A stretch of 64,000 bases of DNA from an uncultured Candidatus Saccharibacteria bacterium (GTDB lineage: Bacteria; Patescibacteriota; Dojkabacteria; CAZCSM01), in contig CAZCSM010000006.1 of assembly GCA_964501355.1 (NCBI GenBank), forward strand, positions 2,347 through 66,346. The letters run 5' to 3'. Positions 1,438-64,000 of the stretch are shown piece after piece (position 1 is the stretch's first letter; the number at the start of each line of letters is the position of its first letter). A model generated the notes under the pieces. That model was not told the origin of the DNA. It saw only the letters and a program-made list of their open reading frames with translations, and made no database searches. Made by a program: the position numbers and the translations under genes.

Positions 1438-1510
1438 TTTTGGCTTGTGATTTATTAACTTTTCTGTACTATATTGTTCTGGGAGTTTTAATTTAGGGAA
1501 TTTTGTTACT

Positions 1511-23019: not shown

Positions 23020-24729
23020 ATGGCTATTAGCGTTGCCGAACTACAAAAAGCCCTTGTTGAGTCAAAAAAACTGAGTGCTGAGGATTTTGATAAAATTAAC
23101 GAAACCGCGAATCGGTTGAATTCTACCGTAGAGCAGGTTCTTCTCGGAAAGGGTTTCTTCTCAGAAGCCGAATTGGGAGCATTACTTGCGAAACGCTATG
23201 GTGTTGATTTTGTTGAATTAGGTAAGCAGGAAATCACTCCTGACATATTGTTCTCCATTCCAAAGGAAATTGCCAGTCGAAAGAAGGTTATTGTATTCGC
23301 TAAGGACCGCGGAATAATGAGTGTGGCAATGTCAAATCCCTTAGATTTGGAAACACTCGATTACATAAAGAAGAGTACAGGATATAACGTAAAGGTATAT
23401 TACGCATTTGAAGAAAGTATTAATGATGCTCTGCGTGCCTATCAAAAGGATATCAAGTTAGCTTTTGTAAATTTAATTGAGGAACAGGCCGAGAAGACAA
23501 AAAAAGAGAAGGGGGCTATTGAGGATGTTGCGAAAAAGATTCCTATTGTTAAGTTGGTTGACACGCTTATCGAATATGCTGTTAATGAGGGGGCCAGTGA
23601 TATTCACATTGAGCCTTTAGAAGAAGAGGTTTTGATTAGATACCGAATAGATGGACAGCTTAGAGATATAACTACGCTTCCAAAAGAAATTCTTCCCATT
23701 CTGATTGCAAGAATTAAAATCATTGCCAATTTACAAATAGATGAGCATCGTTTACCACAGGACGGAAGAATAAACACTATAGTTAACAATAGTAAAGTTG
23801 CTCTTCGAGTCTCTGTTCTTCCTCTATTCTACGGTGAGAAGATAGTGATGAGAGTTTTAGAAGAAACTGCACGGCGTTTCAGTTTGGAGGATCTAGGTGT
23901 TTTAAACCACAACCTCGAGGTTATGAAGAGAAATATCTCGAAGCCCCATGGAATGGTTTTGGTGACCGGGCCGACAGGTAGCGGAAAAACAACCACTCTT
24001 TACACGGTGCTTAGCATTCTCAATACAACTGATGTTAATATTAATACAATTGAAGATCCGATTGAATACAGTATGCCTCGAATCAACCAGACTCAGGTTA
24101 ATGCGAAAATCGGTTTTACATTTAGCGTTGGGTTGAGATCTCTTCTACGGCAGGACCCTGACATAATCATGGTCGGTGAAATTCGTGACAAGGAAACTGT
24201 ACAAATGGCTGTCAATGCTGCAATGACGGGCCACCTTGTTCTGTCCACATTACATACAAATAATGCAGCAGCATCTATCCCGCGTCTTTTGGATATGGGT
24301 GTTGAACCATTTCTTGTAGCTTCAACGCTAAATGCTGTAATGGCTCAGCGATTAACTCGGAAACTTTGTAACGAATGTAAGGAAAAGTATGAGATTCCCG
24401 AGAAGCTGCTAGCGAGCCTTAAAACAGATCTTGAAAAACAAGGATTAACTGCTGCACAGATAAAAGAGGCTGTGGGAGACGGTCATTTCTACAAACCCAT
24501 TGGTTGCAAAAAATGCGGCAATAAAGGTTACAAGGGACGACTTGGTATCTACGAGGTCTTAGAGATGTCCCCAAAGATTATGGAATTAGCTGTATCTGAT
24601 GTCGTTACATATGAGCTTCAAAAGACCGCTATTAAGGAAGGTATGACTACAATGTTATATGATGGAATTACAAAGGCTCGCGAAGGTTTGACCACTTTAG
24701 AAGAAGTATTAGCCGCAACTAGAGAATAA
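23020..24729 (+). CDS. pilB: Type IV pilus assembly ATPase PilB (GspE family), locus 1
   Basis: N-terminal GSPII_E_N domain, Walker A VTGPTGSGKTTTLY, Asp/His boxes, and a tetracysteine CNEC...CKKCG. Confidence 0.85.
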   Translation: MAISVAELQKALVESKKLSAEDFDKINETANRLNSTVEQVLLGKGFFSEAELGALLAKRYGVDFVELGKQEITPDILFSIPKEIASRKKVIVFAKDRGIMSVAMSNPLDLETLDYIKKSTGYNVKVYYAFEESINDALRAYQKDIKLAFVNLIEEQAEKTKKEKGAIEDVAKKIPIVKLVDTLIEYAVNEGASDIHIEPLEEEVLIRYRIDGQLRDITTLPKEILPILIARIKIIANLQIDEHRLPQDGRINTIVNNSKVALRVSVLPLFYGEKIVMRVLEETARRFSLEDLGVLNHNLEVMKRNISKPHGMVLVTGPTGSGKTTTLYTVLSILNTTDVNINTIEDPIEYSMPRINQTQVNAKIGFTFSVGLRSLLRQDPDIIMVGEIRDKETVQMAVNAAMTGHLVLSTLHTNNAAASIPRLLDMGVEPFLVASTLNAVMAQRLTRKLCNECKEKYEIPEKLLASLKTDLEKQGLTAAQIKEAVGDGHFYKPIGCKKCGNKGYKGRLGIYEVLEMSPKIMELAVSDVVTYELQKTAIKEGMTTMLYDGITKAREGLTTLEEVLAATRE

Positions 24730-25952
24730 TGAAATTTAAATATACAGTTACAGACAAAAAGGGGCAGGTTGTAAAAGGCGAGATGGTTGCTCGAACACAG
24801 TCAGAGATTGAATCCAATCTTCTGGAGGATGGTTATACTGTTTTGGCGATTGAGCCGGAAAAGGAATCGTCGGAATCTTCAAAAAAACAATCCGCACTTT
24901 TTCAAAAGAAAATTTCGTTACAGGAAAAGATTCTTCTTTTCACAAACTTGGCGGCAATGCTTAAGGCTGGATTGCCTGTTGTTGATGCGATTGATGTCCT
25001 AAAGGAAGGTCAAAAGAATCAGAGATTGATAGAAATACTAGATGTAGCAAGTTATGACATCCAGGGTGGTATGACCTTTCATTCCGCATTGAGCAAGTTT
25101 CCCGATGTTTTTACGACAATGGACCTTAGTATGTTTGAAGTCGGAGAAGTAGGAGGTATGTTAGAAGAGAATATCAGAACGCTGGCAACAGAATTAAAGA
25201 ATCAAAAAGATCTTCAGTCGAAAGTAAAAGGTGCAATGATGTACCCTATGGTGATTTCAATTGCTTTGGTGGCAATCGTAATATTGCTTATTATTTTCGT
25301 AATACCGCAGATTGCAGGCTTTTTCAAAGACGCTGATTTGGAGTTGCCAATTACAACAAGAATGTTAATCGGATTAAGTGACCTTCTTATAAATTATGGC
25401 ATATATGTTCTCGCGGTTGTAATTGCTGCCATAGTTGCTTTTCGCACAACATATAAGAAAGTAAAGAATTTCAAGCGGATGATTGACGGACTATTATTAA
25501 AGATTCCATTTGTTGGTGTTCAGATTATTAAATTAAATACAGCAAGATTTACAAAAACGTTAGCATCTCTTTTAAAAAGCGGAGTTCCAATTATTCGTTC
25601 TTTGGAAATTACGAAAAATGGCTTTTCTAATTTGATTTATCAAGAGGCTCTTGAAAGTATTGCTCAAGATATTGAATCTGGTCAAGAACTTGCAGATGCG
25701 ATGGCAAAGTTTCCAAACATCTTTTACTCAATGGCTGTTAGGATGGTAAGAGTAGGGGGGCAGACGGGAACTATCGACGAATCTCTACTAAACGTGGCGA
25801 TATATTATCAAGAAGAAGTCACGGAAATTCTCGACAACTTATCCTCTATTATAGAACCTGTTTTATTACTTGTAATGGGTGGTGGAATTGCACTAATTGC
25901 ATTATCTGTACTTGGACCTATTTATCAATTAACCGGGAGTATATCTCAGTAA
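24729..25952 (+). CDS. pilC: Type IV pilus inner-membrane platform protein PilC (GspF family)
   Basis: Two T2SSF repeats and three TM segments. Translationally coupled to pilB. Confidence 0.85.
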   Translation: MKFKYTVTDKKGQVVKGEMVARTQSEIESNLLEDGYTVLAIEPEKESSESSKKQSALFQKKISLQEKILLFTNLAAMLKAGLPVVDAIDVLKEGQKNQRLIEILDVASYDIQGGMTFHSALSKFPDVFTTMDLSMFEVGEVGGMLEENIRTLATELKNQKDLQSKVKGAMMYPMVISIALVAIVILLIIFVIPQIAGFFKDADLELPITTRMLIGLSDLLINYGIYVLAVVIAAIVAFRTTYKKVKNFKRMIDGLLLKIPFVGVQIIKLNTARFTKTLASLLKSGVPIIRSLEITKNGFSNLIYQEALESIAQDIESGQELADAMAKFPNIFYSMAVRMVRVGGQTGTIDESLLNVAIYYQEEVTEILDNLSSIIEPVLLLVMGGGIALIALSVLGPIYQLTGSISQ

Positions 25953-26417
25953 ATGAAAATGCAAAGGGGTTTTACAATGATTGAGATTATCGTTGTTATC
26001 GGCGTCTTAATGCTAATCTCGTCAGGTGCAACAATTCTTTTCCTATCAACTCAGGCAAACAATCAAAGAGAGGTAATAGTGAATGAATTAATCTCCTCTT
26101 TGCGAAAAGCTCAATCCCGAGCCATAAACGGAGAAAATCAATCCGAATTCGGTATATATTTTGAAGAGCACAAATATATCGAATTCCAGGGGGCAAGCTA
26201 TATGGAGGGTAATCCAGATAATATCGTGAACCTGTTGCCAGCTGGTGTCACTATTCGCAATATCAACTTTAATGGCGACGATTTTGTTTATTATGAAAGA
26301 ATGACGGGAGAAGCTAATTATGAGGGGAGCGTTGATATTGCTGTAGTTGGAATTGCTGATGCAAAGAGGATCTCTGTCAATAAATCAGGTATTGTAAATC
26401 TTGAGATTGTTGAATAA
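25953..26417 (+). CDS. Prepilin-type N-terminal cleavage/methylation-domain minor pilin
   Basis: RGFTMIEIIVVIGVLMLI matches the class III signal G/FTxxE. Confidence 0.7.
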   Translation: MKMQRGFTMIEIIVVIGVLMLISSGATILFLSTQANNQREVIVNELISSLRKAQSRAINGENQSEFGIYFEEHKYIEFQGASYMEGNPDNIVNLLPAGVTIRNINFNGDDFVYYERMTGEANYEGSVDIAVVGIADAKRISVNKSGIVNLEIVE

Positions 26418-26910
26418 CCCAAAATTGATGTTTAAGAATCAGCAAGGTGCTCTACTAATAGAGTTTTTAATTGTTCTTGCCCTGATTTCGATATTACTAA
26501 CTTCTGGTTTAGACATTCTAGGACCTAGCTTAAAGATTGTTTATCAGAGTGAGGAACGTGAATTTGTATCTTCTTTGATCCAGGAACAATTTGAGGTTGT
26601 TCGAAGCATTCGCGATGAAGATTGGAATGCTTTGTCAATAAATGGCACATATCATTATGAAGACATTGAGGGTGAAGAGGAAGGTTTGCGTCTGGTTGAG
26701 GATCCGATTACGTATTATGATAAATATGAAGTAGGTATTACACTCTCAGATGTTTATCGAGATTCAAACGGGGAGATTCTTGAGACTGGAGATTTAGATC
26801 AAATTGATACATATACTCGCATGATTTCAGTGTCTGTTTCTTGGGACTCATATGGCGTTTTAAAAAATGAAGTTCAAAGTATTTATCTAACAAATTGGGG
26901 TGATTTTTAG
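26401..26910 (+). CDS. Minor pilin-like protein
   Basis: QGALLIEFLIVLALISILL is a prepilin-like hydrophobic N-terminus with Glu at +5. Confidence 0.55.
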   Translation: MRLLNNPKLMFKNQQGALLIEFLIVLALISILLTSGLDILGPSLKIVYQSEEREFVSSLIQEQFEVVRSIRDEDWNALSINGTYHYEDIEGEEEGLRLVEDPITYYDKYEVGITLSDVYRDSNGEILETGDLDQIDTYTRMISVSVSWDSYGVLKNEVQSIYLTNWGDF

Positions 26911-27415
26911 AAAAGATTTAAAAAGTAATAATGATCAGGCAGGATTTACCCTTGTCGAGGTAATTATCTACATTGCCGTGTCCTCGGTAATGCTCATTAT
27001 TGTAGTTTCGTTCGTGCGCCATATCTTATTGGTAAGAAATAAAGTGACCATTTTATCCAAGGTGCAACAGAATGCTCGATATGCAATGACAAGGATGGTA
27101 AAAGAGGTGCGATATGCGGATGATTTGGAAGTTGTAGATCAGAATACTTTGAGACTTTCCGTAGGAGATCCACTTAGAAATCCATTGTATTTTGATTTAC
27201 AGGGAGGGGTTCTATATATGAAAGAGGGTCTTGGCGATTTCGTCGCAATAACAGGGAATGATGTGAAGGTTGGCGATGTGCTTTTTGAAGACCGTACAAC
27301 TCCAAATTCTGCAGACATTGTAAAAATAACTCTAACCATCTCACATCCTGACGCGAGTGTCTCTCCTGACAGTCAGGCAACTATTAATCTAGATACATAT
27401 GTGGCAAAAAGGTAA
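26900..27415 (+). CDS. Minor pilin (PulJ/PilW-like)
   Basis: AGFTLVEVIIYIAVSSVML prepilin signal. Confidence 0.65.
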   Translation: MIFRKDLKSNNDQAGFTLVEVIIYIAVSSVMLIIVVSFVRHILLVRNKVTILSKVQQNARYAMTRMVKEVRYADDLEVVDQNTLRLSVGDPLRNPLYFDLQGGVLYMKEGLGDFVAITGNDVKVGDVLFEDRTTPNSADIVKITLTISHPDASVSPDSQATINLDTYVAKR

Positions 27416-28715
27416 GTATTCACAATTTAATAAAGAGAAAGGGCAGGTCGCAATTATTGCCGTGTTAGTAGTTTCTCTAATTATGGTTTCCGTTGTTTTT
27501 GCAATCTCGAAAATGTCTCTGGATAATTATGAGATGGCTGACCTAAGTCTCTCATCCACTCAGGCATATTTTTTAGCAGAATCTGGAATAGAGGAGGGGA
27601 TTTACAGACTGAAAGATGATTTGAACTATACAGGAGGGAATTACGATACTCCTATTGGGAATTATGTAATCGAAGTCACCGATAATACGACATATTACAC
27701 AGTTCGTGCAGAAGGACATGTTGGTGGTGTGGTTCGTGCAATTACAGCAAATCTTTCAATATCCGTTGAGAGTGCAAAGATAACTGGCTATTCAGCTTTT
27801 GCAGGAGATGACGTATGGATGTTTTGGTCTAATGCAATTGTTAATGGTGACGTATGGGCGAATGACGATGTCGATTTTTCTAGTAATTCTACCGTATATG
27901 GTGATGTCATTTCTGCTGGGCGTGGAAGTTATTTTACAAGCTGGGTTTCTGATCATGCAAGTATTCTTGATAACCCGGCAACCGCAGATCGAGTTGAAGG
28001 TAACTTCTGGTCGGTAAATCAGATAAGGGTTATTTTAGAAGGGCGGGTTGCGGGAGATGCTTACAGTGAGAATGAAATAATTACTTTGCTTGGTGGTCAT
28101 ATTGATGGAACAGAATATCCGGATCAGGATTTAACGGCAGAAACAGAGCGCATAGAGGTTCCGATGTTTGATTTTTCAACGTATGAGGCACAAGCACAAG
28201 CGGGAGGAACTTTCTATGCAACGGCAACTCAATTCGAAAACTACGTTAATAGTAGGAATGATGGGAGCACTCGCACTCTTCCTGATGGAGTATATTACAT
28301 TAGAAACGGTAATGTGTTTTTTAATCCAGGGCCCCCAATTGTACTTAATGGAAGCATTATTACAGAAGGTGAGATCCGATTCTACTGTGGAGTTCAAATA
28401 AATGCTCAAAATAATTTGCCGGCGCTTGCGGCTGCAAAAGACGCAGAATTCAGAGATTACGGATGGCCAACATATGGTGGTGACTTTGTAACAATAAATG
28501 GTGTATTATATTCTGAGAGAGATATAATCTTAAGACACGATAGCAGCGGAAAGCTAATTGAGGTTAATGGTGCTGCTTGGGCTGGTGACGATTTGCGAAT
28601 CGAAAACTCCAGTACAGTGAATTTTTTGCCGGAAGTAACACAGAATGTCATCGGCTTTGGTTTTACAGTAGAGCCAGGACAGGTTTCAATAGATAATTGG
28701 CAAGAAACATTATAA
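27399..28715 (+). CDS. PilX/PilY-like large pilus-associated protein
   Basis: N-terminal EKGQVAIIAVLVVSLIMV pilin-like anchor, then a 400-aa Asp/Gly-rich beta domain. Confidence 0.4.
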   Translation: MWQKGKYSQFNKEKGQVAIIAVLVVSLIMVSVVFAISKMSLDNYEMADLSLSSTQAYFLAESGIEEGIYRLKDDLNYTGGNYDTPIGNYVIEVTDNTTYYTVRAEGHVGGVVRAITANLSISVESAKITGYSAFAGDDVWMFWSNAIVNGDVWANDDVDFSSNSTVYGDVISAGRGSYFTSWVSDHASILDNPATADRVEGNFWSVNQIRVILEGRVAGDAYSENEIITLLGGHIDGTEYPDQDLTAETERIEVPMFDFSTYEAQAQAGGTFYATATQFENYVNSRNDGSTRTLPDGVYYIRNGNVFFNPGPPIVLNGSIITEGEIRFYCGVQINAQNNLPALAAAKDAEFRDYGWPTYGGDFVTINGVLYSERDIILRHDSSGKLIEVNGAAWAGDDLRIENSSTVNFLPEVTQNVIGFGFTVEPGQVSIDNWQETL

Positions 28716-28725
28716 AATAAAATCT

Positions 28726-30465
28726 ATGACTGCCCTAGATTTTGACAAGTTAATAGAAGGTGAAGATACTTTCGGTTTGGACATTTCCAATACGAGAGTA
28801 AAAGCTATGTGGGTCACGAAATCCGGGAGAAGCAATTTACATCTTCAGAGTTTTGGTGAAGAAACAATTCCTGCAAGTGCTGTCGTAGGTGGAATAATTC
28901 GTCGTCCTGAAGTCGTTGCAGAGGCAATTAAAAAAATACTCAAAAATTCATATCCGAAACCAATTCGGACGAAATATGCCATCTGCTCAATCTCTCAAGA
29001 AAAGGTTTACCTAAAGATTGAGGATTTTCCAAATATTGAAAAGGAGAAACTTCGAGAAGCTGTCACTTGGAAAGCAAACAAGGTTCTTGCAATGCCTTTG
29101 GAAAAGATTTACTGGGATTGGCACAGACTTAATCCAAAGGAAGATGAAAGTACGGTGAGTATTCAGTTTGCAGCCGTGGAAAAGGAAGTTGTCGACTCAT
29201 ATGTCCATGCAATTCGCCTTGCCGGAATTATTCCTCTCGCATTTGAAATGGAGTCAAGTGCTGCAGGACGAGTTCTTCTAGCATCAAATGAAGAGCTTAA
29301 AGAGTCTCCATTGTTATTTGTTGATATCGGAAATAGCAATACAAATCTCTCGATTTATCATCAAGGTGGTTTTCGTTTTAATTCTTCAGTAAATGTCGGA
29401 GGAAATCAAGTAACAAAGATCATTGGTACAGAAAAAGGATTATCTCCCGTCGAGGCGGAGGAGTATCAGCGCACAACAGGACTAAAAACTAAAACAGAAA
29501 CTCTTCAATCCGCGCTTTCTGCTTCTCTCACACCAATAATCTCCGAGATGATGGGTGCAATGCGCTTCTATGATAAAACACCGGGAAAAGAAGATGACAT
29601 TAAATTGGCGAAAGTTTATGGGGATGGTGCATCGCTTAAGGGCGTCGATAAATACCTTGATGAACAGATTCCGGATCTGAAAGTGGGGTATGCAAACCCA
29701 AGTATTGGGATGATTCCGATTCCTCAATTTATTTCCCATGAGAAAATATTTCCGCATCTGGTTGTTACGGGGCTAGCGCTGAAGGGCCTCGGCAAATATC
29801 ATGAATTTGGAGATGTTAACTTCCTTCCTGCGGACGTCCAGAAAGCTTATGTAAATGAGCAGCTTAAAAAGAAAGTTGGAAATATCGTTAAGATTTTATC
29901 AATAAATATAATTGCGATTTGTGGATTCTTGTTGGGTGGACTATTTCTTCTTACTGAGGAATCGAGTCAAATCCAAGCAACAATTAATTCGAAAAAGGCG
30001 ATTCTGCAAGGTTCAAGTATTCAAACAAAGTCATTGGAGATTAGCAAATTCAATGAATCCCTTGCATCGATAAGCTCTATAATAAATTCCGAATTTGATT
30101 GGATAAAAATCTTCGATAAGATCCTTTCTGTAACTCCGGGAAATGTCGTGTTGGATAATATTGATATATATGTAGATGAGTCTTTGGCTCCGAAATCAGA
30201 ACCTATCTGGATTATTAGTCTATATGGTAGAACTGATAATAGACAAACTGTAATTGATTACAGTACAAATCTAATTTCAACGGAAGTTTTCTCAAATGTA
30301 CAAATTCCCGTTTCGGCTTTTTCTTCCGGTGAAGAGGTTGAATTTCGTATTAACATGGATCTGAGCTTTACGAATTTATTGGCAAATCCAGAAAACTTTG
30401 CTAAGAAATCTACAACACAAACAACTGGAGAATTAGAACTTAAACCTTTCACGCCTGCAAAATGA
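28726..30465 (+). CDS. pilMN: PilM-PilN fusion protein
   Basis: N-terminal FGLDISNTRVKAMWV actin-like PilM fold. One TM segment at about aa 390. A PilN-like periplasmic C-terminus. Confidence 0.65.
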   Translation: MTALDFDKLIEGEDTFGLDISNTRVKAMWVTKSGRSNLHLQSFGEETIPASAVVGGIIRRPEVVAEAIKKILKNSYPKPIRTKYAICSISQEKVYLKIEDFPNIEKEKLREAVTWKANKVLAMPLEKIYWDWHRLNPKEDESTVSIQFAAVEKEVVDSYVHAIRLAGIIPLAFEMESSAAGRVLLASNEELKESPLLFVDIGNSNTNLSIYHQGGFRFNSSVNVGGNQVTKIIGTEKGLSPVEAEEYQRTTGLKTKTETLQSALSASLTPIISEMMGAMRFYDKTPGKEDDIKLAKVYGDGASLKGVDKYLDEQIPDLKVGYANPSIGMIPIPQFISHEKIFPHLVVTGLALKGLGKYHEFGDVNFLPADVQKAYVNEQLKKKVGNIVKILSINIIAICGFLLGGLFLLTEESSQIQATINSKKAILQGSSIQTKSLEISKFNESLASISSIINSEFDWIKIFDKILSVTPGNVVLDNIDIYVDESLAPKSEPIWIISLYGRTDNRQTVIDYSTNLISTEVFSNVQIPVSAFSSGEEVEFRINMDLSFTNLLANPENFAKKSTTQTTGELELKPFTPAK

Positions 30466-31103
30466 AACAAGAAGAAGTAAAACAAATAAAAAAGCAAAAT
30501 CCAAACCAATATTATATTGTGGTAGGGTTATTTGTAGTTTCTCTCGTAGGATTATTAATCTTTAGCTATTCGCAGTTGAAGAAATCCGCGACAAAAGTCT
30601 CCGATCAACTTGCTCTGTTGAATCAGTATGCCCTGGAAGAGGCTAAGATTAATAAGCTTTTAAGTGATCATGGTGAGGTTGAGGAACAGTCATTACTTCT
30701 TACAGAAGCAATCCCAGATAAGGGGAAATTGGTGAGCTTCATTGAGAACATAGAGAAGATTGGAGAAATGCTAAATCTGGATTTAGATGTAAGACTAAAA
30801 GAGGGCGTTGTTGACGAAGATGGTGTGGTTGTTGATGTCGAATCTGAGGCAACAAAACGCGTAACTGCATATGCAGGAATATCCTCAGTGGAAGTATTGG
30901 AGGTCGGAGTTTCTGTGCGTACAGATCCGGATGAGTTTGACAAGATAATAAACTTTATCGGTATGCTCGAAGATCTTAAATATTATTCGAGAATTGTTGA
31001 TATGAAATTTATTTCTGGGTTAGACGATCGAGATGGGAGATATTATCTCGATAGTATTTTCACATTAAATTTATATGTTAAAGCCGGTACAGAATCAAAG
31101 TGA
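30462..31103 (+). CDS. pilO: PilO-like bitopic inner-membrane pilus alignment protein
   Basis: Single N-terminal TM, coiled-coil and a C-terminal alpha/beta domain. Sits after pilMN in the locus. Confidence 0.45.
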   Translation: MKQEEVKQIKKQNPNQYYIVVGLFVVSLVGLLIFSYSQLKKSATKVSDQLALLNQYALEEAKINKLLSDHGEVEEQSLLLTEAIPDKGKLVSFIENIEKIGEMLNLDLDVRLKEGVVDEDGVVVDVESEATKRVTAYAGISSVEVLEVGVSVRTDPDEFDKIINFIGMLEDLKYYSRIVDMKFISGLDDRDGRYYLDSIFTLNLYVKAGTESK

Positions 31104-31402
31104 AAGAATTATCAGATAAAATACAAAAGAATATAGTAATTTACATAGAAGTGTTTATTTATGCCGTAATGCTTGCTGTAAACATTTTCTTCGCCTTTGA
31201 AATATATGCGAAGGTCATAGAGAAAGTTGCTCCCAGTGCAAAGACGGTTGAGCTGGAAATCTCAAGTCTAAATTCTCTCAATGAAGACTTGCTAAATGTT
31301 TTCAAGGAAGATCATCAGGAAAGAAAGACCTATATTGAGAGTGGTGATGGTACGTTTGAGAATAAATGGCAAACTCTCTCAAATCCACGCTCTCCATTCT
31401 AA
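31100..31402 (+). CDS. Small membrane protein of the pilus locus
   Basis: 100 aa with one TM segment. Coupled to pilO. Confidence 0.3.
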   Translation: MKELSDKIQKNIVIYIEVFIYAVMLAVNIFFAFEIYAKVIEKVAPSAKTVELEISSLNSLNEDLLNVFKEDHQERKTYIESGDGTFENKWQTLSNPRSPF

Positions 31403-31484
31403 CTTCCCCCTGAACTCAAGATTTCTACATTTAACTTGTTAAGATTCGTGTGCGTTCGCTGTATTGTCTTTTTTTCTGCAATAG

Positions 31485-31515
31485 AAAAATCCCCTATAGA
31501 ATAGGGGATTTTTCA
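31485..31515. terminator. Bidirectional rho-independent terminator between pilus locus 1 and the convergent pilA
   Basis: Perfect palindrome AAAAATCCCCTATAGAATAGGGGATTTTT with A and T runs on both sides. Confidence 0.6.
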
Positions 31516-31536
31516 TGCTTACCTTGGAAATAGATC

Positions 31537-31998
31537 TTAGTATGTCAAGTAGAACTTTGTTTCTTCTTGATCTGCATTCACTTCCATATTGTTTGTTGCA
31601 ACAATGATGTGTTGAGGTGATGCTGTACTATCTACACCGATTAGATACTCTGTAGTTCCATCTGGGTCTACAGGTAGTTCACTTAGATAAGTTGTAAGTC
31701 CATCAAGGTCACTTACGTTACATGCGCCTGCTGTTCCACAAGTAGGTGCTCCAGATACTGTTAATGAATCAAGTGCTGCTCCGCCGATTGTTGGGAAGGC
31801 ACCATTATTATCAATAGTATAAACACTTACTGCTTGAAGAACTGCATTCACATCTTCTCTTCGTCTCGAGTTTCTTGCATCTTGGAATCTTTTCACAGGA
31901 TTTAATGCAACAAGTGTTACAACTGCGAGAATACCAAGAATAGCGATGACTACAAGGATTTCAATTAAGGTAAAACCTTTTTGATTAAGCTTTCTCAT
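31537..31998 (-). CDS. pilA: Type IV major pilin (PilA-like)
   Basis: KGFTLIEILVVIAILGILA prepilin signal and a strong AGGAGGTG ribosome-binding site. 153 aa. Confidence 0.8.
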   Translation of the reverse strand: MRKLNQKGFTLIEILVVIAILGILAVVTLVALNPVKRFQDARNSRRREDVNAVLQAVSVYTIDNNGAFPTIGGAALDSLTVSGAPTCGTAGACNVSDLDGLTTYLSELPVDPDGTTEYLIGVDSTASPQHIIVATNNMEVNADQEETKFYLTY

Positions 31999-32201: not shown

Positions 32202-32987
32202 ATGTCAGGACATTCCAAATGGTCAACTATTAAAAGGAAAAAGGGTGCTCTAGATGCTAAGCGAGGTCAAGTCTTCACGAAGATCTCAAAGATGATAACT
32301 ATCGCTGCACAAGAAGGCGGTGGTGATCCAGATATGAACTTCTCTTTGCGTATTGCTATAGAGAAGGCAAAAGAGGCAAACATGCCAAAAGACAACATCG
32401 ACAGAGCTGTTAAAAAAGGATTGGGAGAGGGTGGTGGTGAAGCGTTAGTTGAAATGTCATATGAGGGCTATGGTCCTGAGGGAGTTGCTGTTATTGTTGA
32501 TGCAATGACAGATAATAGAAATCGTACTGCAGCCGAGGTTCGCCATATTTTTGAGGGTTGCGGCGGATCATTGGGATCGGATGGCGCCGTTTCTTGGCAG
32601 TTTGAAACAAAAGGTTTGATTACGATTAAATGTAAAAAGATTCAAAAATCAGAGAAATTTGGTAAAGAGGACGAAGAGGTTTCTATCGATAAGGACGAAT
32701 GCATGTTAGAGATTATGGAGGTTGAGGGTGTAGAAGACGTTCGGGAAATAGATCTGGAAGAAGAAGGCTTGGGTCTAGAAATTTATTCTGATAAAAAGGA
32801 CTTTGCTCCAGTACGGGGACAGGTTGAGCAGTTAGGTTATGTAATTGTTTCCTCTGAAATCATCAAGGTTCCGACCAATCCTACGAAAGTCAGTGCTGAA
32901 GTAGTTGAGAAAGTCCATCACTTTATAGAGTCTATGGAGGAAAATGAGGATGTCCAAAATGTTTGGGTTAATATAGACTTAGAATAA
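32202..32987 (+). CDS. yebC: YebC/PmpR-family transcriptional regulator
   Basis: MSGHSKWSTIKRKKGALDAKRG is the canonical N-terminus. Carries an acidic insert. Confidence 0.85.
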   Translation: MSGHSKWSTIKRKKGALDAKRGQVFTKISKMITIAAQEGGGDPDMNFSLRIAIEKAKEANMPKDNIDRAVKKGLGEGGGEALVEMSYEGYGPEGVAVIVDAMTDNRNRTAAEVRHIFEGCGGSLGSDGAVSWQFETKGLITIKCKKIQKSEKFGKEDEEVSIDKDECMLEIMEVEGVEDVREIDLEEEGLGLEIYSDKKDFAPVRGQVEQLGYVIVSSEIIKVPTNPTKVSAEVVEKVHHFIESMEENEDVQNVWVNIDLE

Positions 32988-33497
32988 TTGATGTCAAAGA
33001 AATCATCTATTCGTATATTGGGGATTGATCCCGGGATTGCAATAACAGGGTGGGGGATTGTAGATTTTGACGGAAACCAGTGTAAAGTAATTTCATATGG
33101 TGCAATTATTACTAACTCTGACCAACTGATTGAAGATCGTTTGAATATTCTTTTTGATGATTTGGATGAAGTCGTAGCAGAATTCTCTCCTTCCGTTATG
33201 GCAATAGAGCAATTGTTTTTTTTCAAAAATGCAAAAACGATAATTACCGTTGGGGAGGCGAGGGGGGTTACACTGCTTGCCGCGAAGAGATGCAATCTTG
33301 GAATATTTGAGTATACGCCCTTGCAAATAAAGCAGGCTGTGACAGGCTATGGGCGTGCTGCCAAAGCTCAGATGCAGCAGATGATAACGGAATTGCTAAA
33401 ACTTGAGGAAACGCCAAAGCCTGATGATGTTGCTGATGCATTGGCAGTAGCCTATACTCACAGTGTATATAATAATCACTTTAAATTCGAAAAATGA
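32988..33497 (+). CDS. ruvC: Holliday junction resolvase RuvC
   Basis: ILGIDPGIAITGWGIV and an acidic catalytic tetrad region. Confidence 0.85.
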   Translation: MMSKKSSIRILGIDPGIAITGWGIVDFDGNQCKVISYGAIITNSDQLIEDRLNILFDDLDEVVAEFSPSVMAIEQLFFFKNAKTIITVGEARGVTLLAAKRCNLGIFEYTPLQIKQAVTGYGRAAKAQMQQMITELLKLEETPKPDDVADALAVAYTHSVYNNHFKFEK

Positions 33498-34081
33498 TAG
33501 GATATCTAAAAGGTACTGTAATTGAAACCGATGCAGAGACTCTAATTTTAAATGTTAGTGGAGTAGGGTACCTAGTTCATGCTAATACCTCTGTCATACG
33601 CAAGGATGAAGATAAGGAGTTTTATATCTATACACATGTTCGCGAAGATCAGCTAAATTTGTATGGATTTCCCACTCAAGAAGAACTGACCCTATTTAAA
33701 ATTTTGATTTCCGTTAAAGGAGTTGGACCAAAAGTGGCGATGAGTATTCTTTCCAATCTCAGTGTGGAAGAGCTTGCTCAGGCTGTTCTACTTGATGACG
33801 CGAAAACAATTCAGTCTGTTCCAGGAATTGGGAAAAAAGGTGCTGAGCGGATTGTTCTTGAAATAAGAGGACAGATTGAGAACTTAGGATATTCTGCAAA
33901 GGGTGGAGTAGAAAGAAACACAACGAAGATAGCGAGTAACTTGAAAAAGGAAGTTCTTGGTGCCCTGCAAAACCTCGGTTATAATAAAGGGGAAGCAGAA
34001 GATAGACTGGATGCTGTGATGCAGGACTATTCTGGCGAAATGAAGGTCGAAACTCTGATTAAACTATGTTTGAGCACATAA
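33494..34081 (+). CDS. ruvA: Holliday junction DNA helicase RuvA
   Basis: MIGYLKG start, OB-fold, and a paired helix-hairpin-helix ([17 protein letters not shown]). Confidence 0.85.
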
Positions 34082-34085
34082 AATT

Positions 34086-35087
34086 GTGATAGAAAAGAGA
34101 ATTGTTTCTCCCACTGCGGATAAACAGGATGTTAAAATAGAAAAAACATTAAGACCTCGAACTTTAAAGGAATTAATCGGGAGGGAGCAGGAAAAGGAAA
34201 GCTTCAACATATTAATTGATGCCGCGAAGAAACGTGGTGCTTCTATCGACCATGTCTTATTATATGGTCCGCCGGGGCTTGGCAAAACTACTCTTGCTCA
34301 TATTTTGGCAAATGAGATGAACGTTGGAATCAAGGTCACATCGGGGCCGGCCATTGAGCGCGCTGGTGATTTGGCTGCAATTCTAACGAACCTTCAAAAA
34401 CACGACATCTTGTTTATTGATGAGATACATAGATTGAACAAGGTTGTCGAGGAAATCTTATACCCTGCTATGGAAGATTCTTCCTTAGATATAATTATTG
34501 GGAAGGGACCTTCTGCAAGAACTGTCAAATTAGACTTGCCGCCATTCACCTTGATCGGTGCTACGACTAAGATTGGTATGCTCAGTTCTCCGTTGCGTGA
34601 TCGTTTCGGAGTCATTCACAGACTTAATTATTATAGTGAGGAGGAGCTTGCGCAGATAATTATTCGGTCTGCAGATGTGCTCGGTGTATCCATATCACAA
34701 GAGTATGCAAAGGAAATTGCGGAAAGATCTCGCGGGACAGCCAGAATTGCAAATAGACTGCTGAAACGTGTTCGAGACTATGCGGAAGTAAAAAATGATA
34801 GTGTTATCGATAGTAATGTCGTTGCAGAATCACTGAATATAATAGGCGTTGATAAAAATGGTTTGGATAACTTGGATAGAATGGTTCTCTCGGTAATATT
34901 AGAAAATTATAGTGGCGGGCCTGTCGGTCTTAAGGCTATTGCTGCCGTAATATCTGAGGATGTGGATACCCTTGCTGATGTTTGCGAGCCATACCTCCTG
35001 CAAAACGGTTATATCCTGAGAACGCCACGAGGAAGGGTTGCAACTAAAAAAGCCTATGATTTACTTGGTTTAGAATATAAATTTTAA
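34086..35087 (+). CDS. ruvB: Holliday junction DNA helicase RuvB
   Basis: AAA+ Walker [12 protein letters not shown], Walker [11 protein letters not shown], and a winged-helix C-terminus. Confidence 0.9.
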
Positions 35088-36570: not shown

Positions 36571-37686
36571 ATGGTTGCTTTAGATCCCCTATCGATTGAA
36601 ATTCCTTATAAAGAGGACTTTTTGATTGATTTGACAAACAATAATTACTCTATTGAAACTGTTTATAACTACGGTAGGGATCTTACGGTCTTTGAAAGGT
36701 TTCTACAATCACGTAAAGTTCCATTTGAGAAGTTGGATAAAAGGACGATTAGTTTGTACAAAGGATTTTTACGCTCAGGGAAACATTTGGAAATAATAAA
36801 TGAGCTTCGAGATAGAGAAGAATTTTTGAAAATTACGGGACATGCTTCAATTAACATTGGTGATACGGCAGAATCTCGTGTGACGAATTCTAAGGGGGTT
36901 CTAAGCGACGATAAGGTTGCAGGTGCTACACGAGGTGCTTTGCAAAATACAAGTTTGAATAAACTCTCGGCTCGATCTGTGAATCGGATGCTTTCTGCTC
37001 TCAGATCTTACCTCGGATATTTGCTCGACTATGATTATGTATGTCCGATTGCTCCCGAAGTTATTAAACTTATAAAAACGGAACGTAAAGAATCTCAAGT
37101 TGCTGATCTTGATGAATTAATTCAAATTATCGAAGCTTCAGAATTATATGAGGAAGATGACTTTGTTAAACTTCGAAATCGTGCAATGCTTGAAGTTCTT
37201 TTTTCAACTGGGATGAGAATCTCTGAACTTGTTAGTTTAGGAACTGCGGATATTAATGCGGAAGGTAAGATCTATATTATGGGTAAAGGAAAGAAGCAGC
37301 GTATGGTTTATTTGACCGAAAGGGCTAGGGGGCATTTGAATGAGTATATGAAGAGAAGAGGGACTTCTGAATTTTCTACCTCCCCTGCTCTATTTTTATC
37401 TTCTCGCGGTCAGGGGAAAAATACGAGAAAAAGTCGAATAACTCCACGTTATGTTCAGATGAAAATTCAACAATATCGCAAACTTTTGGGGATTGTGGTT
37501 CCGGTGACGCCACATGGTTTGAGGCACGGTTTCGCAACTTATTTGGCTGAAGAAGGCGCAAATCCGGCGGCGATCCAGAGGCTTCTCGGTCATGAATCTC
37601 TTCAAACTACGACAAGATATGTGCATGCGTCGGATAAATTTGCAGAGGAAACACATAAGAAATATCATCCGCTGGCGGTGGGATAA
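36571..37686 (+). CDS. Tyrosine site-specific recombinase/integrase (XerC/D-phage integrase family) with an enlarged N-terminal SAM-like domain
   Basis: C-terminal catalytic motifs HGLRH and LLGHESLQTTTRYVH, with R...K...H.R..Y placement. It follows a 716-bp non-coding region. Confidence 0.8.
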   Translation: MVALDPLSIEIPYKEDFLIDLTNNNYSIETVYNYGRDLTVFERFLQSRKVPFEKLDKRTISLYKGFLRSGKHLEIINELRDREEFLKITGHASINIGDTAESRVTNSKGVLSDDKVAGATRGALQNTSLNKLSARSVNRMLSALRSYLGYLLDYDYVCPIAPEVIKLIKTERKESQVADLDELIQIIEASELYEEDDFVKLRNRAMLEVLFSTGMRISELVSLGTADINAEGKIYIMGKGKKQRMVYLTERARGHLNEYMKRRGTSEFSTSPALFLSSRGQGKNTRKSRITPRYVQMKIQQYRKLLGIVVPVTPHGLRHGFATYLAEEGANPAAIQRLLGHESLQTTTRYVHASDKFAEETHKKYHPLAVG

Positions 37687-53264: not shown

Positions 53265-53633
53265 ATGAAAAATTTTAAAAAAGAGGAGAAAATTCAGTAT
53301 AGGGCTTATGCTTTTTCTCTTAATGTTATAAATCTTTTAAAGAGAAGTAAGAAACATGATTATATAAACGAGGTTCTTTTCAAGCAAATACTTCGTTCTG
53401 TAACTTCGATTGGAGCAAACATTATTGAGGGTCAAGCGGGAATTAGTCGTAAGGAGTTTCGAAATTATATGAGTATTGCACTCAAAAGTGCAAATGAAAC
53501 AAAATATTGGTTAGCACTAATACGAGATTTAAGGATATTTGTGAAAGATGATGTTGACTCGTTAATAGAAGAGTCAATAGAGATTGCAAATATATTAGGA
53601 GCGATTGTCTTCAAGTTAAGGAAAAATGACTAA
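53265..53633 (+). CDS. Four-helix-bundle protein (23S rRNA intervening-sequence protein family)
   Basis: 122 aa. SIGANIIEGQ...SANETKYWL matches the TIGR02436-type four-helix bundle. It is flanked by inverted A/T-rich repeats. Confidence 0.7.
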   Translation: MKNFKKEEKIQYRAYAFSLNVINLLKRSKKHDYINEVLFKQILRSVTSIGANIIEGQAGISRKEFRNYMSIALKSANETKYWLALIRDLRIFVKDDVDSLIEESIEIANILGAIVFKLRKND

Positions 53634-61081: not shown

Positions 61082-61174
61082 GTTGAAATGAATATGTTGG
61101 TTTTGGAGTAAAACCATTTACGTCTTCGGTATGGGAGAAGAAGTGATAATGAAATCTTTTTAGAAAATTCTGAT

Positions 61175-62780: not shown

Positions 62781-63812
62781 ATGTCACTGCCTAATTTTTT
62801 TGGATTGGATTTTGGAAATCATACTGTAAAAATTGTTCAATTAAAAGGCCAGCAAGGAAAGCCTTCTCTTGTCAGTTACGGTGGCACCTCTACCCCATTC
62901 GGCGTCATTAGAAGTGAAAATGAAGAACACCAAAAAGGTCTTGCCGATGTGACAAAAGCCCTCGTTAAAACACTAAATATCAAGACAAATAATTGTGTTG
63001 TTGCATTGCCGGAGTCATCAATATTTACGAGACTCATTACAATTCCCGGAATGAAACCACAGGAAGTTGAAAATGCCGTATATTGGGAGGCAAAACAATA
63101 TATTCCTGTCGATTTGGAAGCTGTCCAATTGGATTGGATGGAAGTCGGCGAAACTGTAGTTGGCGAGACCGTACAAAAGAAAATACTTCTTGTCGCGGCT
63201 CCAAAGACATTGGTTGAATTATATGTAAAGGTCGTTCAGATGGCAGGTTTAGAGCCGATTGCTTTGGAAACAGAAGCAATTGCGAATGTACGAGCAATGA
63301 GCAACTCAACTCAAAATTCTAATGCTATTATCCTCGATTTTGGGGCTCAGTCTACAGATCTCGTTGTAATGAGCAAAGGAAACTTGCTTTTCTCTCAAAC
63401 TTTAAGTACCGGTTCAGATGCTTTAACAAAGGCTATTATGCAGGATTACGCGCTGAATGAAGAACAGGCGGAACAGTACAAGAGAACATACGGTGTTGAT
63501 GAAACTCAGCTTGAGGGCAAGTTAGTACAAACACTTGCACCCGTCATGAATTCCATCGTTGATGAGACGAGGAGAGCTTTGGGCTTTTATCGAACACACG
63601 CAGCTGAAGAAGCCCCGGACAAGGTTTTTCTCGTTGGCGATGGAGCAAGGCTTCCTGGATTGTCTTCATTTATGACGAAATCTTTAGGCGTTGAGTCTTC
63701 AGTAGGAAATCCTTGGAACAATATTGATTTAGGAGATCGCTTTGCTCAGGAGTTAGCTTCGGGCTCTCCTGGTTACTCTGTTGCAGTTGGTCTAGCATTA
63801 AAGTCAAAATAG
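62781..63812 (+). CDS. pilM: Type IV pilus assembly protein PilM, locus 2
   Basis: FFGLDFGNHTVKIVQL actin-like ATPase fold. 343 aa. Confidence 0.8.
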   Translation: MSLPNFFGLDFGNHTVKIVQLKGQQGKPSLVSYGGTSTPFGVIRSENEEHQKGLADVTKALVKTLNIKTNNCVVALPESSIFTRLITIPGMKPQEVENAVYWEAKQYIPVDLEAVQLDWMEVGETVVGETVQKKILLVAAPKTLVELYVKVVQMAGLEPIALETEAIANVRAMSNSTQNSNAIILDFGAQSTDLVVMSKGNLLFSQTLSTGSDALTKAIMQDYALNEEQAEQYKRTYGVDETQLEGKLVQTLAPVMNSIVDETRRALGFYRTHAAEEAPDKVFLVGDGARLPGLSSFMTKSLGVESSVGNPWNNIDLGDRFAQELASGSPGYSVAVGLALKSK

Positions 63813-63815
63813 ATA

Positions 63816-64000
63816 TGGCAGAAAAAGGACAGGGCGTAAATCTATTACCCTCCCTCACAAAAGGTGAGATGAAAAAAGAACGTCAAAAAGGGCAGCTAAT
63901 TCTTGGTACAACAGGTGTGACCTTCCTTGTCGCTTTGATAACGGCGGGTCTTTTGTTCTATAACTTATATCTTCAGTACAAAGTTCAGGGTGCCCCTTTC
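63816..64000 (+). CDS. pilN: PilN-like protein. The 5-prime part only, running off the window end.
   Basis: N-terminal VNLLPS motif followed by a TM segment (TTGVTFLVALITAGLLF), immediately after pilM. Confidence 0.55.

What the first reader, a model, noticed from the sequence alone, without database searches (positions are those of the whole stretch)
28726..30465. Fused PilM-PilN protein in locus 1 versus separate pilM and pilN in locus 2
A single 579-aa ORF combines the cytoplasmic actin-like PilM fold, one TM helix and a PilN-like periplasmic domain. Locus 2 encodes the two as separate genes (62781-63812 and 63816 onward). The fusion hard-wires the PilM-PilN interaction that is normally mediated by the PilN N-terminal peptide. 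It is also a useful marker to distinguish the two machineries.
Basis: inference. Interest (0 to 1): 0.5.

Follow-up and report, generated by a model that had tools for sequence, protein, structure and literature searches.

The report
Natural PilM-PilN fusion protein in Patescibacteria
A single gene really does join two type IV pilus assembly proteins (PilM and PilN), but such fusions are already known elsewhere, so this is a correct, useful annotation and not a surprise.

Summary
The 579-aa ORF at 28726-30465 (+) is real and is a genuine single-chain PilM-PilN ("PilMN").

- **Junction (364-368):** VNFLP, the signature N-terminal motif of PilN. It is nearly invariant in 40 fused homologues.
- **C-terminal part:** one N-in transmembrane helix (~386-410), a coiled coil and an alpha-beta-beta-alpha-beta-beta domain. 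A profile of this part matches stand-alone ~185-aa PilN proteins end to end, and it links to solved PilN structures.

The fusion is not an artefact. The identical protein occurs in an independent assembly. Fused homologues at 17-87% identity sit in the same ~10-gene cassette in Dojkabacteria, Doudnabacteria and other Patescibacteria.

Locus 2 does encode separate pilM (62781-63812) and pilN. The pilN start is 63815, not 63816.

The peptide motif is among the most conserved elements of the protein.

Natural PilM-PilN fusions are already described (C. difficile PilMN; GspL/PulL/EpsL). I rate this a new member of a known kind, of low to moderate interest. Public records call these proteins only "PilM".

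The parts
28726..30465 (+). pilMN: single 579-aa ORF encoding fused PilM-PilN
   Evidence: ORF list and translation. Full-length fused homologues of 575-581 aa at 51-87% identity, plus a Dojkabacteria homologue at 26%.
28768..29784 (+). Cytoplasmic actin-like PilM domain (aa 15-353)
29785..29814 (+). 10-residue linker (aa 354-363, GLGKYHEFGD) between the end of PilM and the PilN motif
   Evidence: Alignment with the PilM2 C-terminus (...VGLALKSK*) and with 40 fused proteins. There is no in-frame ATG, GTG or TTG here, so no internal start.
29815..29829 (+). VNFLP (aa 364-368): the PilN N-terminal PilM-binding signature motif, retained at the junction
   Evidence: N365 is present in 39/40 and P368 in 40/40 fused proteins. 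The motif is present in 28 of 32 distant fused clusters. Locus-2 PilN has VNLLP at residues 8-12. M. xanthus PilN (3JC8) aligns from MIRINLLP.
29881..29955 (+). Single transmembrane helix (about aa 386-410), N-in/C-out
   Evidence: It is the only hydrophobic segment by Kyte-Doolittle hydropathy. KKK lies upstream and EES downstream. It lies within the long AF2 helix 369-427.
29956..30084 (+). Extracytoplasmic coiled-coil region (aa 411-453)
   Evidence: AF2 helices 369-427 and 430-453. The same region aligns to stand-alone PilN proteins.
30100..30366 (+). Ferredoxin-like alpha-beta-beta-alpha-beta-beta PilN core domain (aa 459-547)
   Evidence: DSSP on the AF2 model: H459-469, E475-483, E494-503, H506-518, E522-526, E538-547, with pLDDT about 70-86. 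Pfam PilN covers aa 462-543.
30462..31103 (+). 213-aa bitopic protein in the PilO/GspM position, overlapping the pilMN stop by 4 nt (ATGA)
   Evidence: It has a short N-terminus, one TM helix, a coiled coil and an alpha/beta domain. It is conserved in the same position in L002, L006 and L007. The PilO assignment is weak: Pfam PilO hits 1 of 6 homologues at E 0.013, and hhalign to the PilN profile is not significant.
31100..31402 (+). 100-aa small TM protein, a conserved cassette member of unknown role
   Evidence: Translation. ORFs of 88-103 aa occupy the same position in L002, L006 and L007.
23020..24729 (+). Locus-1 extension ATPase (PilB/GspE type)
   Evidence: Pfam T2SSE E 1.3e-135 and MshEN. 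TIGR02538 PilB 577 bits and GspE 559 bits, both below their cutoffs.
24729..25952 (+). Locus-1 platform protein (PilC/GspF type)
   Evidence: Pfam T2SSF E 1.7e-51. The best NCBIfam hit is GspF at 306 bits, below its cutoff.
25953..27415 (+). Three small prepilin-type minor pilins (154, 169 and 171 aa)
   Evidence: Pfam N_methyl. Weak ComGD/GspH, ComGE and ComGF-like NCBIfam hits.
27399..28715 (+). 438-aa large pilin-like protein (GspK/PilX-like N-terminus)
   Evidence: N-terminal hydrophobic helix. Weak GspK N-terminal hit at E 0.027. Homologues of 435-455 aa sit at the same position in L002, L006 and L007.
31537..31998 (-). Divergently encoded GspG-like pilin (153 aa), the probable major subunit of locus 1
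   Evidence: Pfam N_methyl E 7.8e-10. TIGR01710 gspG E 7.8e-12, below cutoff. A minus-strand pilin sits in the same place in L002, L006 and L007.
62781..63812 (+). Locus-2 stand-alone pilM (343 aa)
   Evidence: Pfam PilM_2 E 2.6e-55 over the full length, ending ...VGLALKSK*.
63815..64000 (+). Locus-2 stand-alone pilN, with only the first 61 codons inside the window
   Evidence: MAEKGQGVNLLPSLTKGEMKKERQKGQLILGTTGVTFLVALITAGLLFYNLYLQ...: the motif followed by a TM helix. It aligns to the start of the fused C-terminal profile.

Best explanation
The ORF encodes a natural single-chain PilM-PilN (PilMN). It is the assembly-platform (alignment) subunit of a second, PilT-less type IV filament cassette in a Dojkabacteria-like Patescibacteria (CPR) genome.

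Shown:
- An N-terminal full PilM actin-like domain.
- A 10-residue linker.
- The canonical PilN N-terminal motif (VNFLP).
- One N-in transmembrane helix.
- A coiled coil and a ferredoxin-like PilN core outside the membrane.
- In sequence terms the gene is pilM read straight into pilN, with no extra domain and nothing deleted.

Inferred:
- The VNFLP peptide still docks into the PilM groove. Docking is most simply in cis, as in the engineered P. aeruginosa PilM:PilN(1-12) chimera, which has the same connectivity.
- The covalent link enforces 1:1 stoichiometry and co-localisation, rather than replacing the contact.
- The outer domain pairs with the translationally coupled downstream 213-aa bitopic protein, which sits in the PilO/GspM position.
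- The complex surrounds the PilC-type platform.
- It couples the PilB-type ATPase to polymerisation of the locus-1 pilins.

The fusion is old. It is shared, with the same gene order, by Dojkabacteria, Doudnabacteria and other Patescibacteria.
For: - **PilN part.** All 8 fused homologues hit Pfam PilN. The C-terminal profile gave 3323 hits at E<=1e-3. Among the best 148, 112 are stand-alone proteins of 145-247 aa (most ~185 aa), most of them matched from their residue 2-6 onward. Another 32 are fused proteins matched at their C-terminal ends. Sampled stand-alone hits pass the Pfam PilN gathering score. A profile of the window C-terminus plus 61 stand-alone relatives has M. xanthus PilN (E 1.1e-6) and T. 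thermophilus PilN (E 1.4e-3) as its top two PDB hits.
- **Motif retention.** N365 is present in 39/40 and P368 in 40/40 fused proteins.
- **Topology.** One hydrophobic segment with positive charge on the inside.
- **Not an artefact.** The identical protein is on an independent Logan contig. There are fused homologues at 51-87% and ~20-30% identity.
- **Synteny.** The same gene order is seen in L002, L006 and L007.
- **Feasibility of cis docking.** The 5EOU chain (372 aa) is PilM followed by PilN(1-12) at its C-terminus. AF2 pLDDT is about 88-89 across residues 351-370.
- **Lineage.** The nearest named GyrB relatives are Dojkabacteria/Patescibacteria at 60-63% identity.
Against: - For this protein alone, the Pfam PilN score (15.5-17.5 bits) is below the gathering score of 22.8. 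The assignment rests on profile and transitive evidence.
- The C-terminal domain could not be fold-searched on its own, because I could not crop the model and had no prediction jobs left.
- The PilO identity of the downstream 213-aa protein is weak.
- There is no expression or functional data for any member.
- The locus-1 gene order and pilin types also resemble a T2SS or Com-type system, so the name of the machine (pilus or pseudopilus) is open.
Confidence: 0.88

Rival explanations
1. The protein is a GspL-type component, and locus 1 is a T2SS-like (pseudopilus/secretion) or Com-like (DNA uptake) machine, not a type IVa pilus. On this reading the fused protein should be filed as GspL, not PilMN.
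For: The gene order is ATPase, platform, three small minor pilins, a large GspK/PilX-like pilin, the fused protein and then a bitopic protein. This mirrors gspE-F-(G)-H-I-J-K-L-M. The probable major pilin's best hit is GspG, and the platform's best hit is GspF. Locus 1 has no PilT, whereas locus 2 has one. GspL is described as a PilM-PilN fusion (PMC10191384, PMC6325625). Recombination genes follow locus 1 (YebC-RuvCAB) here and in L006, and RecX lies nearby in L002.
Confidence: 0.1
2. The fusion is an assembly, sequencing or gene-calling artefact that merged adjacent pilM and pilN genes.
For: In many genomes, including locus 2 of this window, pilM and pilN are adjacent and separated by only a few bases. 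A single indel or a lost stop codon would therefore create such an ORF.
Against: The identical 579-aa protein was recovered from an independent run (Logan DRR835035). Six homologues at 51-87% identity have the same length, 575-581 aa. About 32 more 50%-identity clusters are fused, with the junction motif in frame. The junction has no in-frame start codon, and the linker is conserved in length.
Confidence: 0.01
3. The C-terminal half is not PilN but a PilO-like or unrelated bitopic domain that merely shares the topology of a TM helix, a coiled coil and an alpha/beta domain.
For: PilN and PilO share a fold and topology. The Pfam PilN hit for this protein alone is below threshold. The profile of fused C-termini alone found no PDB PilN.
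Against: The N-terminal NLLP motif is specific to PilN and is nearly invariant. All 8 close homologues hit PilN and none hits PilO. Stand-alone relatives pass the PilN gathering score. The enlarged profile hits solved PilN from Myxococcus and Thermus as its top two PDB matches. A separate PilO-position gene follows.
Confidence: 0.02

Closest known systems
PilMN of Clostridioides difficile (primary type IV pilus cluster)
   Same: Both are natural single-ORF fusions of PilM and PilN in a bacterium without an outer-membrane secretin. Each is followed by a PilO-type gene and sits inside a pilB-pilC-pilin cluster. The fusion was described by Pelicic 2019 (PMC6916266, citing Melville and Craig 2013). 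The gene product is named PilMN in PMC6143707 and PMC7057214.
   Different: The phylum differs (Firmicutes versus Patescibacteria). Pelicic notes a different PilM-PilN contact motif for monoderm Firmicutes, whereas this protein keeps the classical NLLP-type motif. The C. difficile cluster includes PilT, and locus 1 here does not.
Separate PilM + PilN of type IVa pili (T. thermophilus 2YCH/4BHQ, P. aeruginosa 5EOX, M. xanthus 3JC8)
   Same: These give the best structural and sequence matches for both halves. They share the same N-terminal PilN motif, the same topology and the same domain order.
   Different: They are two polypeptides held together only by the PilN peptide docking into PilM. Here one chain carries a 10-residue linker. 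Sequence identity is only about 20-26%.
Engineered P. aeruginosa PilM:PilN(1-12) chimera (PDB 5EOU)
   Same: It has the same connectivity, PilM C-terminus joined to PilN N-terminus by a short linker. The chain is 372 aa against 357 aa for PilM alone, and both align from residue 15.
   Different: It is artificial and carries only 12 PilN residues, with no TM helix or outer domain.
GspL / PulL / EpsL of type II secretion systems
   Same: It is a bitopic protein with a cytoplasmic actin-like domain, one TM helix and a periplasmic ferredoxin-like domain. The literature describes it as a natural fusion of PilM and PilN (PMC10191384, PMC6325625, PMC4471445). It is followed by GspM, as the fused gene here is followed by a bitopic protein. 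The locus-1 gene order is similar.
   Different: The protein has no detectable sequence membership: there are no T2SSL or GspL_C hits. It has a full PilM/FtsA-like fold and keeps the acidic and glycine residues of the nucleotide-binding motifs in this protein. No secretin or GspC was found in the window.
Amuc_1101 family PilM-like pilus complex protein (NCBIfam NF045709, Akkermansia type)
   Same: It is a long (608-position) PilM-like model. The model aligns to residues 14-469 of this protein, beyond the PilM domain and through the TM/coiled-coil region.
   Different: The score of 93.6 bits is far below the family cutoff of 650, so the protein is not a member. The architecture of that family was not examined here.

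Membership tests
PilM (Pfam PF11104 PilM_2 / TIGR01175) | Sequence match above the curated thresholds | tested here: met
   PF11104 scores 109.8 bits against a gathering score of 27, over residues 17-353. TIGR01175 scores 134.7 bits against a cutoff of 133.
PilM (Pfam PF11104 PilM_2 / TIGR01175) | Actin/FtsA-like fold closest to solved PilM structures | tested here: met
PilM (Pfam PF11104 PilM_2 / TIGR01175) | Nucleotide-binding motifs of the actin-like ATPase fold | tested here: inconclusive
   The window protein has D19, D200-I-G202 and G299-D-G301. Across 40 fused proteins, position 19 is D/E in 35/40, position 200 is D/E in 28/40, and G299 is present in 40/40. Binding itself is not testable here.
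PilM (Pfam PF11104 PilM_2 / TIGR01175) | Binds the cytoplasmic N-terminal peptide of PilN | not testable with these tools
   The motif is present and conserved, and AF2 is confident at the junction. No coordinates, complex model or experiment were available.
PilN (Pfam PF05137) | Sequence match above the Pfam gathering score | tested here: not met
   This protein scores 15.5 bits (full length) or 17.5 bits (C-terminal part) against a gathering score of 22.8. Homologues P0038 and P0047 pass, and all 8 close homologues hit PilN.
PilN (Pfam PF05137) | Homology to bona fide stand-alone PilN over the whole length | tested here: met
   The C-terminal profile matches ~185-aa proteins from their residue 2-6 to the end at E down to 1e-18. 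These proteins pass the Pfam PilN gathering score. The enlarged profile hits solved PilN 3JC8_N (E 1.1e-6) and 4BHQ (E 1.4e-3).
PilN (Pfam PF05137) | Conserved cytoplasmic N-terminal (I/V)NLLP motif followed by one N-in TM helix | tested here: met
   VNFLP lies at residues 364-368. N is present in 39/40 and P in 40/40 fused proteins. There is a single TM helix at about 386-410 with KKK on the inside.
PilN (Pfam PF05137) | Coiled coil plus ferredoxin-like alpha-beta-beta-alpha-beta-beta outer domain | tested here: met
   DSSP of the AF2 model gives H430-453, then H459-469, E475-483, E494-503, H506-518, E522-526, E538-547. A separate fold search of this domain was not possible.
PilN (Pfam PF05137) | Heterodimerises with PilO | not testable with these tools
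   A translationally coupled bitopic 213-aa gene follows, but its PilO identity is weak.
GspL (T2SS protein L; Pfam T2SSL / GspL_C) | Sequence match to the GspL cytoplasmic or periplasmic domain models | tested here: not met
   No such family appears in the Pfam scan at E<=0.1 or in the NCBIfam scan.
GspL (T2SS protein L; Pfam T2SSL / GspL_C) | Cytoplasmic domain structurally closest to GspL/EpsL rather than PilM | tested here: not met
GspL (T2SS protein L; Pfam T2SSL / GspL_C) | Encoded with a secretin (GspD) and GspC | tested here: not met
   None was found among the window ORFs scanned with Pfam. Not every ORF was scanned. The lineage is Patescibacteria.
Natural PilMN fusion of monoderm type IV pili (C. 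difficile type) | PilM and PilN in one ORF inside a pil cluster that lacks a secretin | tested here: met
   The literature definition is in PMC6916266.
Natural PilMN fusion of monoderm type IV pili (C. difficile type) | Common origin (orthology) with C. difficile PilMN | not tested
All named members of the fused clade found here are Patescibacteria.
Amuc_1101 family (NCBIfam NF045709) | Score above the family cutoff | tested here: not met
   93.6 bits against a cutoff of 650.

The most novel reading that the evidence does not exclude
The fused PilMN may mark a distinct, ancient type IV filament cassette that is widespread in Patescibacteria. The cassette runs ATPase, platform, three small pilins, a ~435-aa GspK/PilX-like pilin, PilMN, a ~200-aa bitopic protein, a ~95-aa TM protein and a divergent GspG-like pilin. 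It has no PilT and no secretin. It would be neither a classical T4aP nor a T2SS nor a Com system. It combines a T2SS-like gene order and an L-type fused subunit with a still fully PilM/PilN-like sequence, including the retained NLLP peptide. That would make it a living intermediate showing how GspL arose from PilM plus PilN. It could also be the host-attachment or DNA-uptake machine of these episymbionts.
Probability: 0.15. Interest if true: 0.55.

Novelty: new member of a known kind. Interest (0 to 1): 0.27.

Why it matters
- **Annotation.** Every named member of this fused clade that I could look up is called only "PilM". Automated surveys would therefore score the PilN component of this cassette as missing. 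Recognising PilMN fixes that. It also gives a simple marker separating the two pilus systems of these genomes: the PilT-containing locus has split pilM and pilN, and the PilT-less locus has fused pilMN.
- **Biology.** The NLLP peptide stays nearly invariant although the chains are covalently joined. This argues that the PilN peptide-PilM contact does more than tether. For example, it may set the PilM conformation or its partner choice, as proposed for P. aeruginosa.
- **Limits.** This is a modest point, and the architecture itself is already known from C. difficile and from GspL. Two-pilus-system Patescibacteria are being studied experimentally (PMC11623550), so a defined marker for the second system has some practical value.

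Tried and rejected
- The search for related loci with alignment A1 failed, because no stretch was conserved enough. The source genome was therefore not named directly. Lineage was inferred from GyrB relatives instead.
- I tried to extend past the window end to get full-length locus-2 PilN. Exact look-ups of PilM2 and PilC2 found nothing on record. Only 61 codons of PilN2 could be compared.
- The listing of cluster members on ten window proteins gave no organism names.
- A PDB sequence search with the fused-only C-terminal profile A3 found nothing relevant. It worked only after adding stand-alone relatives.
- The first AF2 model, from 9 sequences, was mediocre (pLDDT 67.5, with the junction below 50). 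It was replaced by the 40-sequence model.
- The afdb50 fold library was unavailable.
- Testing the downstream 213-aa ORF as PilO gave little. Pfam PilO hit 1 of 6 homologues at E 0.013, and hhalign against the PilN profile matched only the TM helix. Its PilO role therefore rests on position and topology alone.
- The Melville and Craig 2013 review is not held. The C. difficile fusion is cited through PMC6916266.
- A neighbour-joining tree of the PilN domain groups nearly all fused proteins together. I treat this only as a hint of a single origin: the domain is short, the method is NJ, and the hit list was selected by a profile built from fused proteins.
Full report
**Observation**

The window contains an uninterrupted 579-codon ORF at 28726-30465 on the + strand. 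The other two + frames are full of stops. Pfam places a full-length PilM_2 domain on residues 17-353 (E 1.8e-31) and gives a weak PilN hit on 462-543 (E 0.018, 15.5 bits, below the gathering score of 22.8). NCBIfam TIGR01175 (pilM) scores 134.7 bits, just above its cutoff of 133.

Hydropathy shows exactly one hydrophobic segment, at roughly residues 386-410. KKK lies on its N-terminal side and EES on its C-terminal side, which fits an N-in/C-out topology.

Locus 2 encodes a stand-alone 343-aa PilM at 62781-63812 (Pfam E 2.6e-55). It is followed by a gene starting at ATG 63815. The product begins MAEKGQGVNLLPS...TM helix, which is a typical PilN start, and it is cut by the window end.

**Is the fusion real?**

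- The exact 579-aa protein is also encoded on an independently assembled Logan contig (DRR835035).
- Six homologues at 51-87% identity are 575-581 aa long. A 577-aa homologue at 26% identity comes from a Candidatus Dojkabacteria genome.
- A profile of the C-terminal part retrieved 32 further fused clusters of 470-588 aa among the best 148 hits.
- The junction DNA has no in-frame alternative start codon.

An artefact is therefore excluded by conservation, although I could not inspect reads.

**Is the C-terminal half PilN?**

- All eight C-terminal segments of the close fused homologues hit Pfam PilN, best E 6.2e-5.
- An HMM of residues 358-579 (alignment A3) searched against 1.84 billion representatives gave 3323 hits at E<=1e-3 and 236 at E<=1e-10.
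- Of the best 148 hits, 112 are stand-alone proteins of 145-247 aa (most ~185 aa), most of them matched from their own residue 2-6 onward. That is the size and layout of PilN. The 32 fused proteins are matched at their C-terminal ends.
- Sampled stand-alone hits (P0051, P0053, P0054, P0058) and fused hits (P0038, P0047) pass the Pfam PilN gathering score. The fused ones also carry PilM_2 at the N-terminus.
- A profile of the window C-terminus plus 61 stand-alone relatives has M. xanthus PilN (3JC8 chain N, E 1.1e-6, aligned from MIRINLLP) and T. thermophilus PilN (4BHQ, E 1.4e-3) as its two best PDB matches.

The 40-sequence AlphaFold2 model has mean pLDDT 86 and pTM 0.68. It shows a long helix at 369-427 (juxtamembrane plus TM plus coil) and a second helix at 430-453. 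These are followed by an alpha-beta-beta-alpha-beta-beta unit (H459-469, E475-483, E494-503, H506-518, E522-526, E538-547), which is the ferredoxin-like layout known for PilN and PilO. I could not crop the model to fold-search this domain separately.

**The N-terminal half is PilM, not GspL**

**The junction**

PilM2 ends ...VGLALKSK*. The fused protein reads ...VTGLALKG-LGKYHEFGD-VNFLPADVQKAY...KKK-[TM].

The fusion is therefore simply pilM read through into pilN. It has a ~10-residue linker, comparable to the 7 residues that precede VNLLP in PilN2.

Across 40 fused proteins that are otherwise only about 30% identical per column, the motif [ILVM]-N-[LF]-[LVI]-P has N in 39/40 and P in 40/40. 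These are among the very few (near-)invariant positions of the whole protein.

Established knowledge is that the PilN N-terminal peptide docks onto PilM (2YCH; PMC6325625, PMC6916266). The engineered P. aeruginosa PilM:PilN(1-12) chimera 5EOU has the same connectivity. Its chain is 372 aa against 357 aa for PilM alone, with the extra residues at the C-terminus. AF2 is confident across 351-370, with pLDDT about 88-89.

From this I infer that the peptide still docks, most simply in cis, and that the covalent link adds stoichiometry and co-localisation rather than replacing the contact. Docking itself was not observed here.

**Context**

Locus 1, in gene order:

| Coordinates | Strand | Product |
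|---|---|---|
| 23020-24729 | + | PilB/GspE-type ATPase |
| 24729-25952 | + | PilC/GspF-type platform |
| 25953-27415 | + | three small prepilins |
| 27399-28715 | + | 438-aa GspK/PilX-like protein |
| 28726-30465 | + | pilMN |
| 30462-31103 | + | 213-aa bitopic protein, overlapping the pilMN stop (ATGA) |
| 31100-31402 | + | 100-aa TM protein |
| 31537-31998 | - | GspG-like pilin |

Locus 1 has no PilT and no prepilin peptidase. Locus 2 has PilB, PilT, PilC, a pilin, PilD, minor pilins, two DUF4215 proteins, a receiver-domain protein, then PilM and PilN.

The same locus-1 gene order, including the fused gene and the two small downstream ORFs, is found in three other places:
- L006, with 55% identity, also followed by YebC-RuvCAB.
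- L002, Dojkabacteria GCA_016932045.1.
- L007, Doudnabacteria GCA_016788825.1.

The nearest named GyrB relatives are Dojkabacteria/Patescibacteria at 60-63% identity. Named members of the fused clade are Dojkabacteria, Doudnabacteria, "Patescibacteria group" and an ACD "uncultured bacterium". All are annotated only as PilM.

A neighbour-joining tree of the PilN domain groups almost all fused proteins together. This suggests one old fusion, but the tree is weak evidence.

The 213-aa protein has PilO-like position and topology but only a marginal PilO signal.

**Comparison with what is known**

[quoted passage not shown] PilMN is the standard name there (PMC6143707, PMC7057214).
- Two distinct type IV pilus systems, one with PilT and one without, are described in Saccharibacteria, where PilM and PilN are listed as separate genes in both loci (PMC11623550).
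- Within the searches I ran, I found no paper describing the Patescibacteria fused form.

The architecture is thus known. Its occurrence as a conserved cassette marker in Patescibacteria appears undescribed, but it is an incremental addition.

**Verdict**

This is a new member of a known kind, with interest about 0.27.

The most novel reading still open concerns the whole PilT-less cassette, which has a T2SS-like order and an L-type fused subunit that is still PilM/PilN-like in sequence. It could be a distinct Patescibacteria-wide type IV filament class that shows how GspL arose. I give that about 15% probability.

Noticed in passing
window 23020-31998; L002 3841-14188; L006 4248-13207; L007 4314-12960: A ~10-gene cassette is syntenic across Dojkabacteria-like, Dojkabacteria and Doudnabacteria genomes. 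It comprises a PilB-type ATPase, a PilC-type platform, three small pilins, a ~435-aa GspK/PilX-like protein, fused PilMN, a ~200-aa bitopic protein, a ~90-100-aa TM protein and a divergent GspG-like pilin. The order resembles gspE-F-H-I-J-K-L-M, but there is no secretin and no PilT.
   Followed up: partly
window 31100-31402 (+): A 100-aa ORF with one TM helix and a coiled coil sits downstream of the PilO-position gene. It matches no family. ORFs of 88-103 aa occupy the same position in L002, L006 and L007, so it is probably a real, unnamed cassette component.
   Followed up: partly
window 27399-28715 (+): A 438-aa protein has a pilin-like N-terminal hydrophobic helix, with only a weak GspK N-terminal hit (E 0.027) and a weak bactofilin-like repeat signal (E 0.028). 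It may be a large tip or minor pilin, and it is conserved at this position in related loci.
   Followed up: partly
window 32202-35087 (+); L006 13414-16365; L002 15560-16210: Recombination genes lie directly downstream of the PilT-less pilus cassette: YebC-RuvC-RuvA-RuvB here and in L006, and RecX nearby in L002. In Saccharibacteria TM7x the PilT-less locus carries RecAX (PMC11623550). This may hint at a link to DNA uptake, or it may be coincidence.
   Followed up: no
window 53265-53633 (+): A 23S rRNA intervening-sequence protein family gene (PF05635, E 1.5e-23) is inserted between pilT and pilC of locus 2.
   Followed up: no
window 59093-62320 (+): Two proteins with DUF4215 repeats (662 aa and 381 aa) lie inside locus 2, between the minor pilins and pilM. 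They may be pilus-associated surface or adhesin proteins.
   Followed up: no
window 62347-62718 (+): A stand-alone response-regulator receiver domain protein (123 aa, PF00072 E 1.4e-25) lies immediately upstream of pilM in locus 2. It may be a PilG/PilH-like regulator.
   Followed up: no
window 511-3013 (+): An IF-2B family protein lies next to a glycosyl transferase family 3 protein. From memory, this looks like the ribose-1,5-bisphosphate isomerase / AMP phosphorylase pair typical of CPR nucleotide salvage.
   Followed up: no
proteins P0008 and P0188 (homologues of window 28726-31103): Public records label 60-64%-identical homologues of PilMN and the downstream gene as 'Clostridiaceae bacterium' MAG proteins. 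They sit on 2.6-2.8 kb contigs. Given the Patescibacteria affinity of the window (GyrB), these are probably mis-binned contigs.
   Followed up: partly
proteins P0016, P0018, P0020, P0021: Other extended PilM proteins exist: PilM plus SH3-type domains (PF08239/PF06347; 487-596 aa) and a 784-aa PilM-containing protein. PilM is therefore fused to partners other than PilN in some lineages.
   Followed up: no
window 36571-37686 (+): A tyrosine recombinase/integrase (PF00589 E 1e-38) lies a few kb downstream of locus 1. A similar integrase sits at the equivalent place in L006 (18089-19195), so it is more likely a conserved XerC/D-type gene than a mobile-element marker.
   Followed up: no
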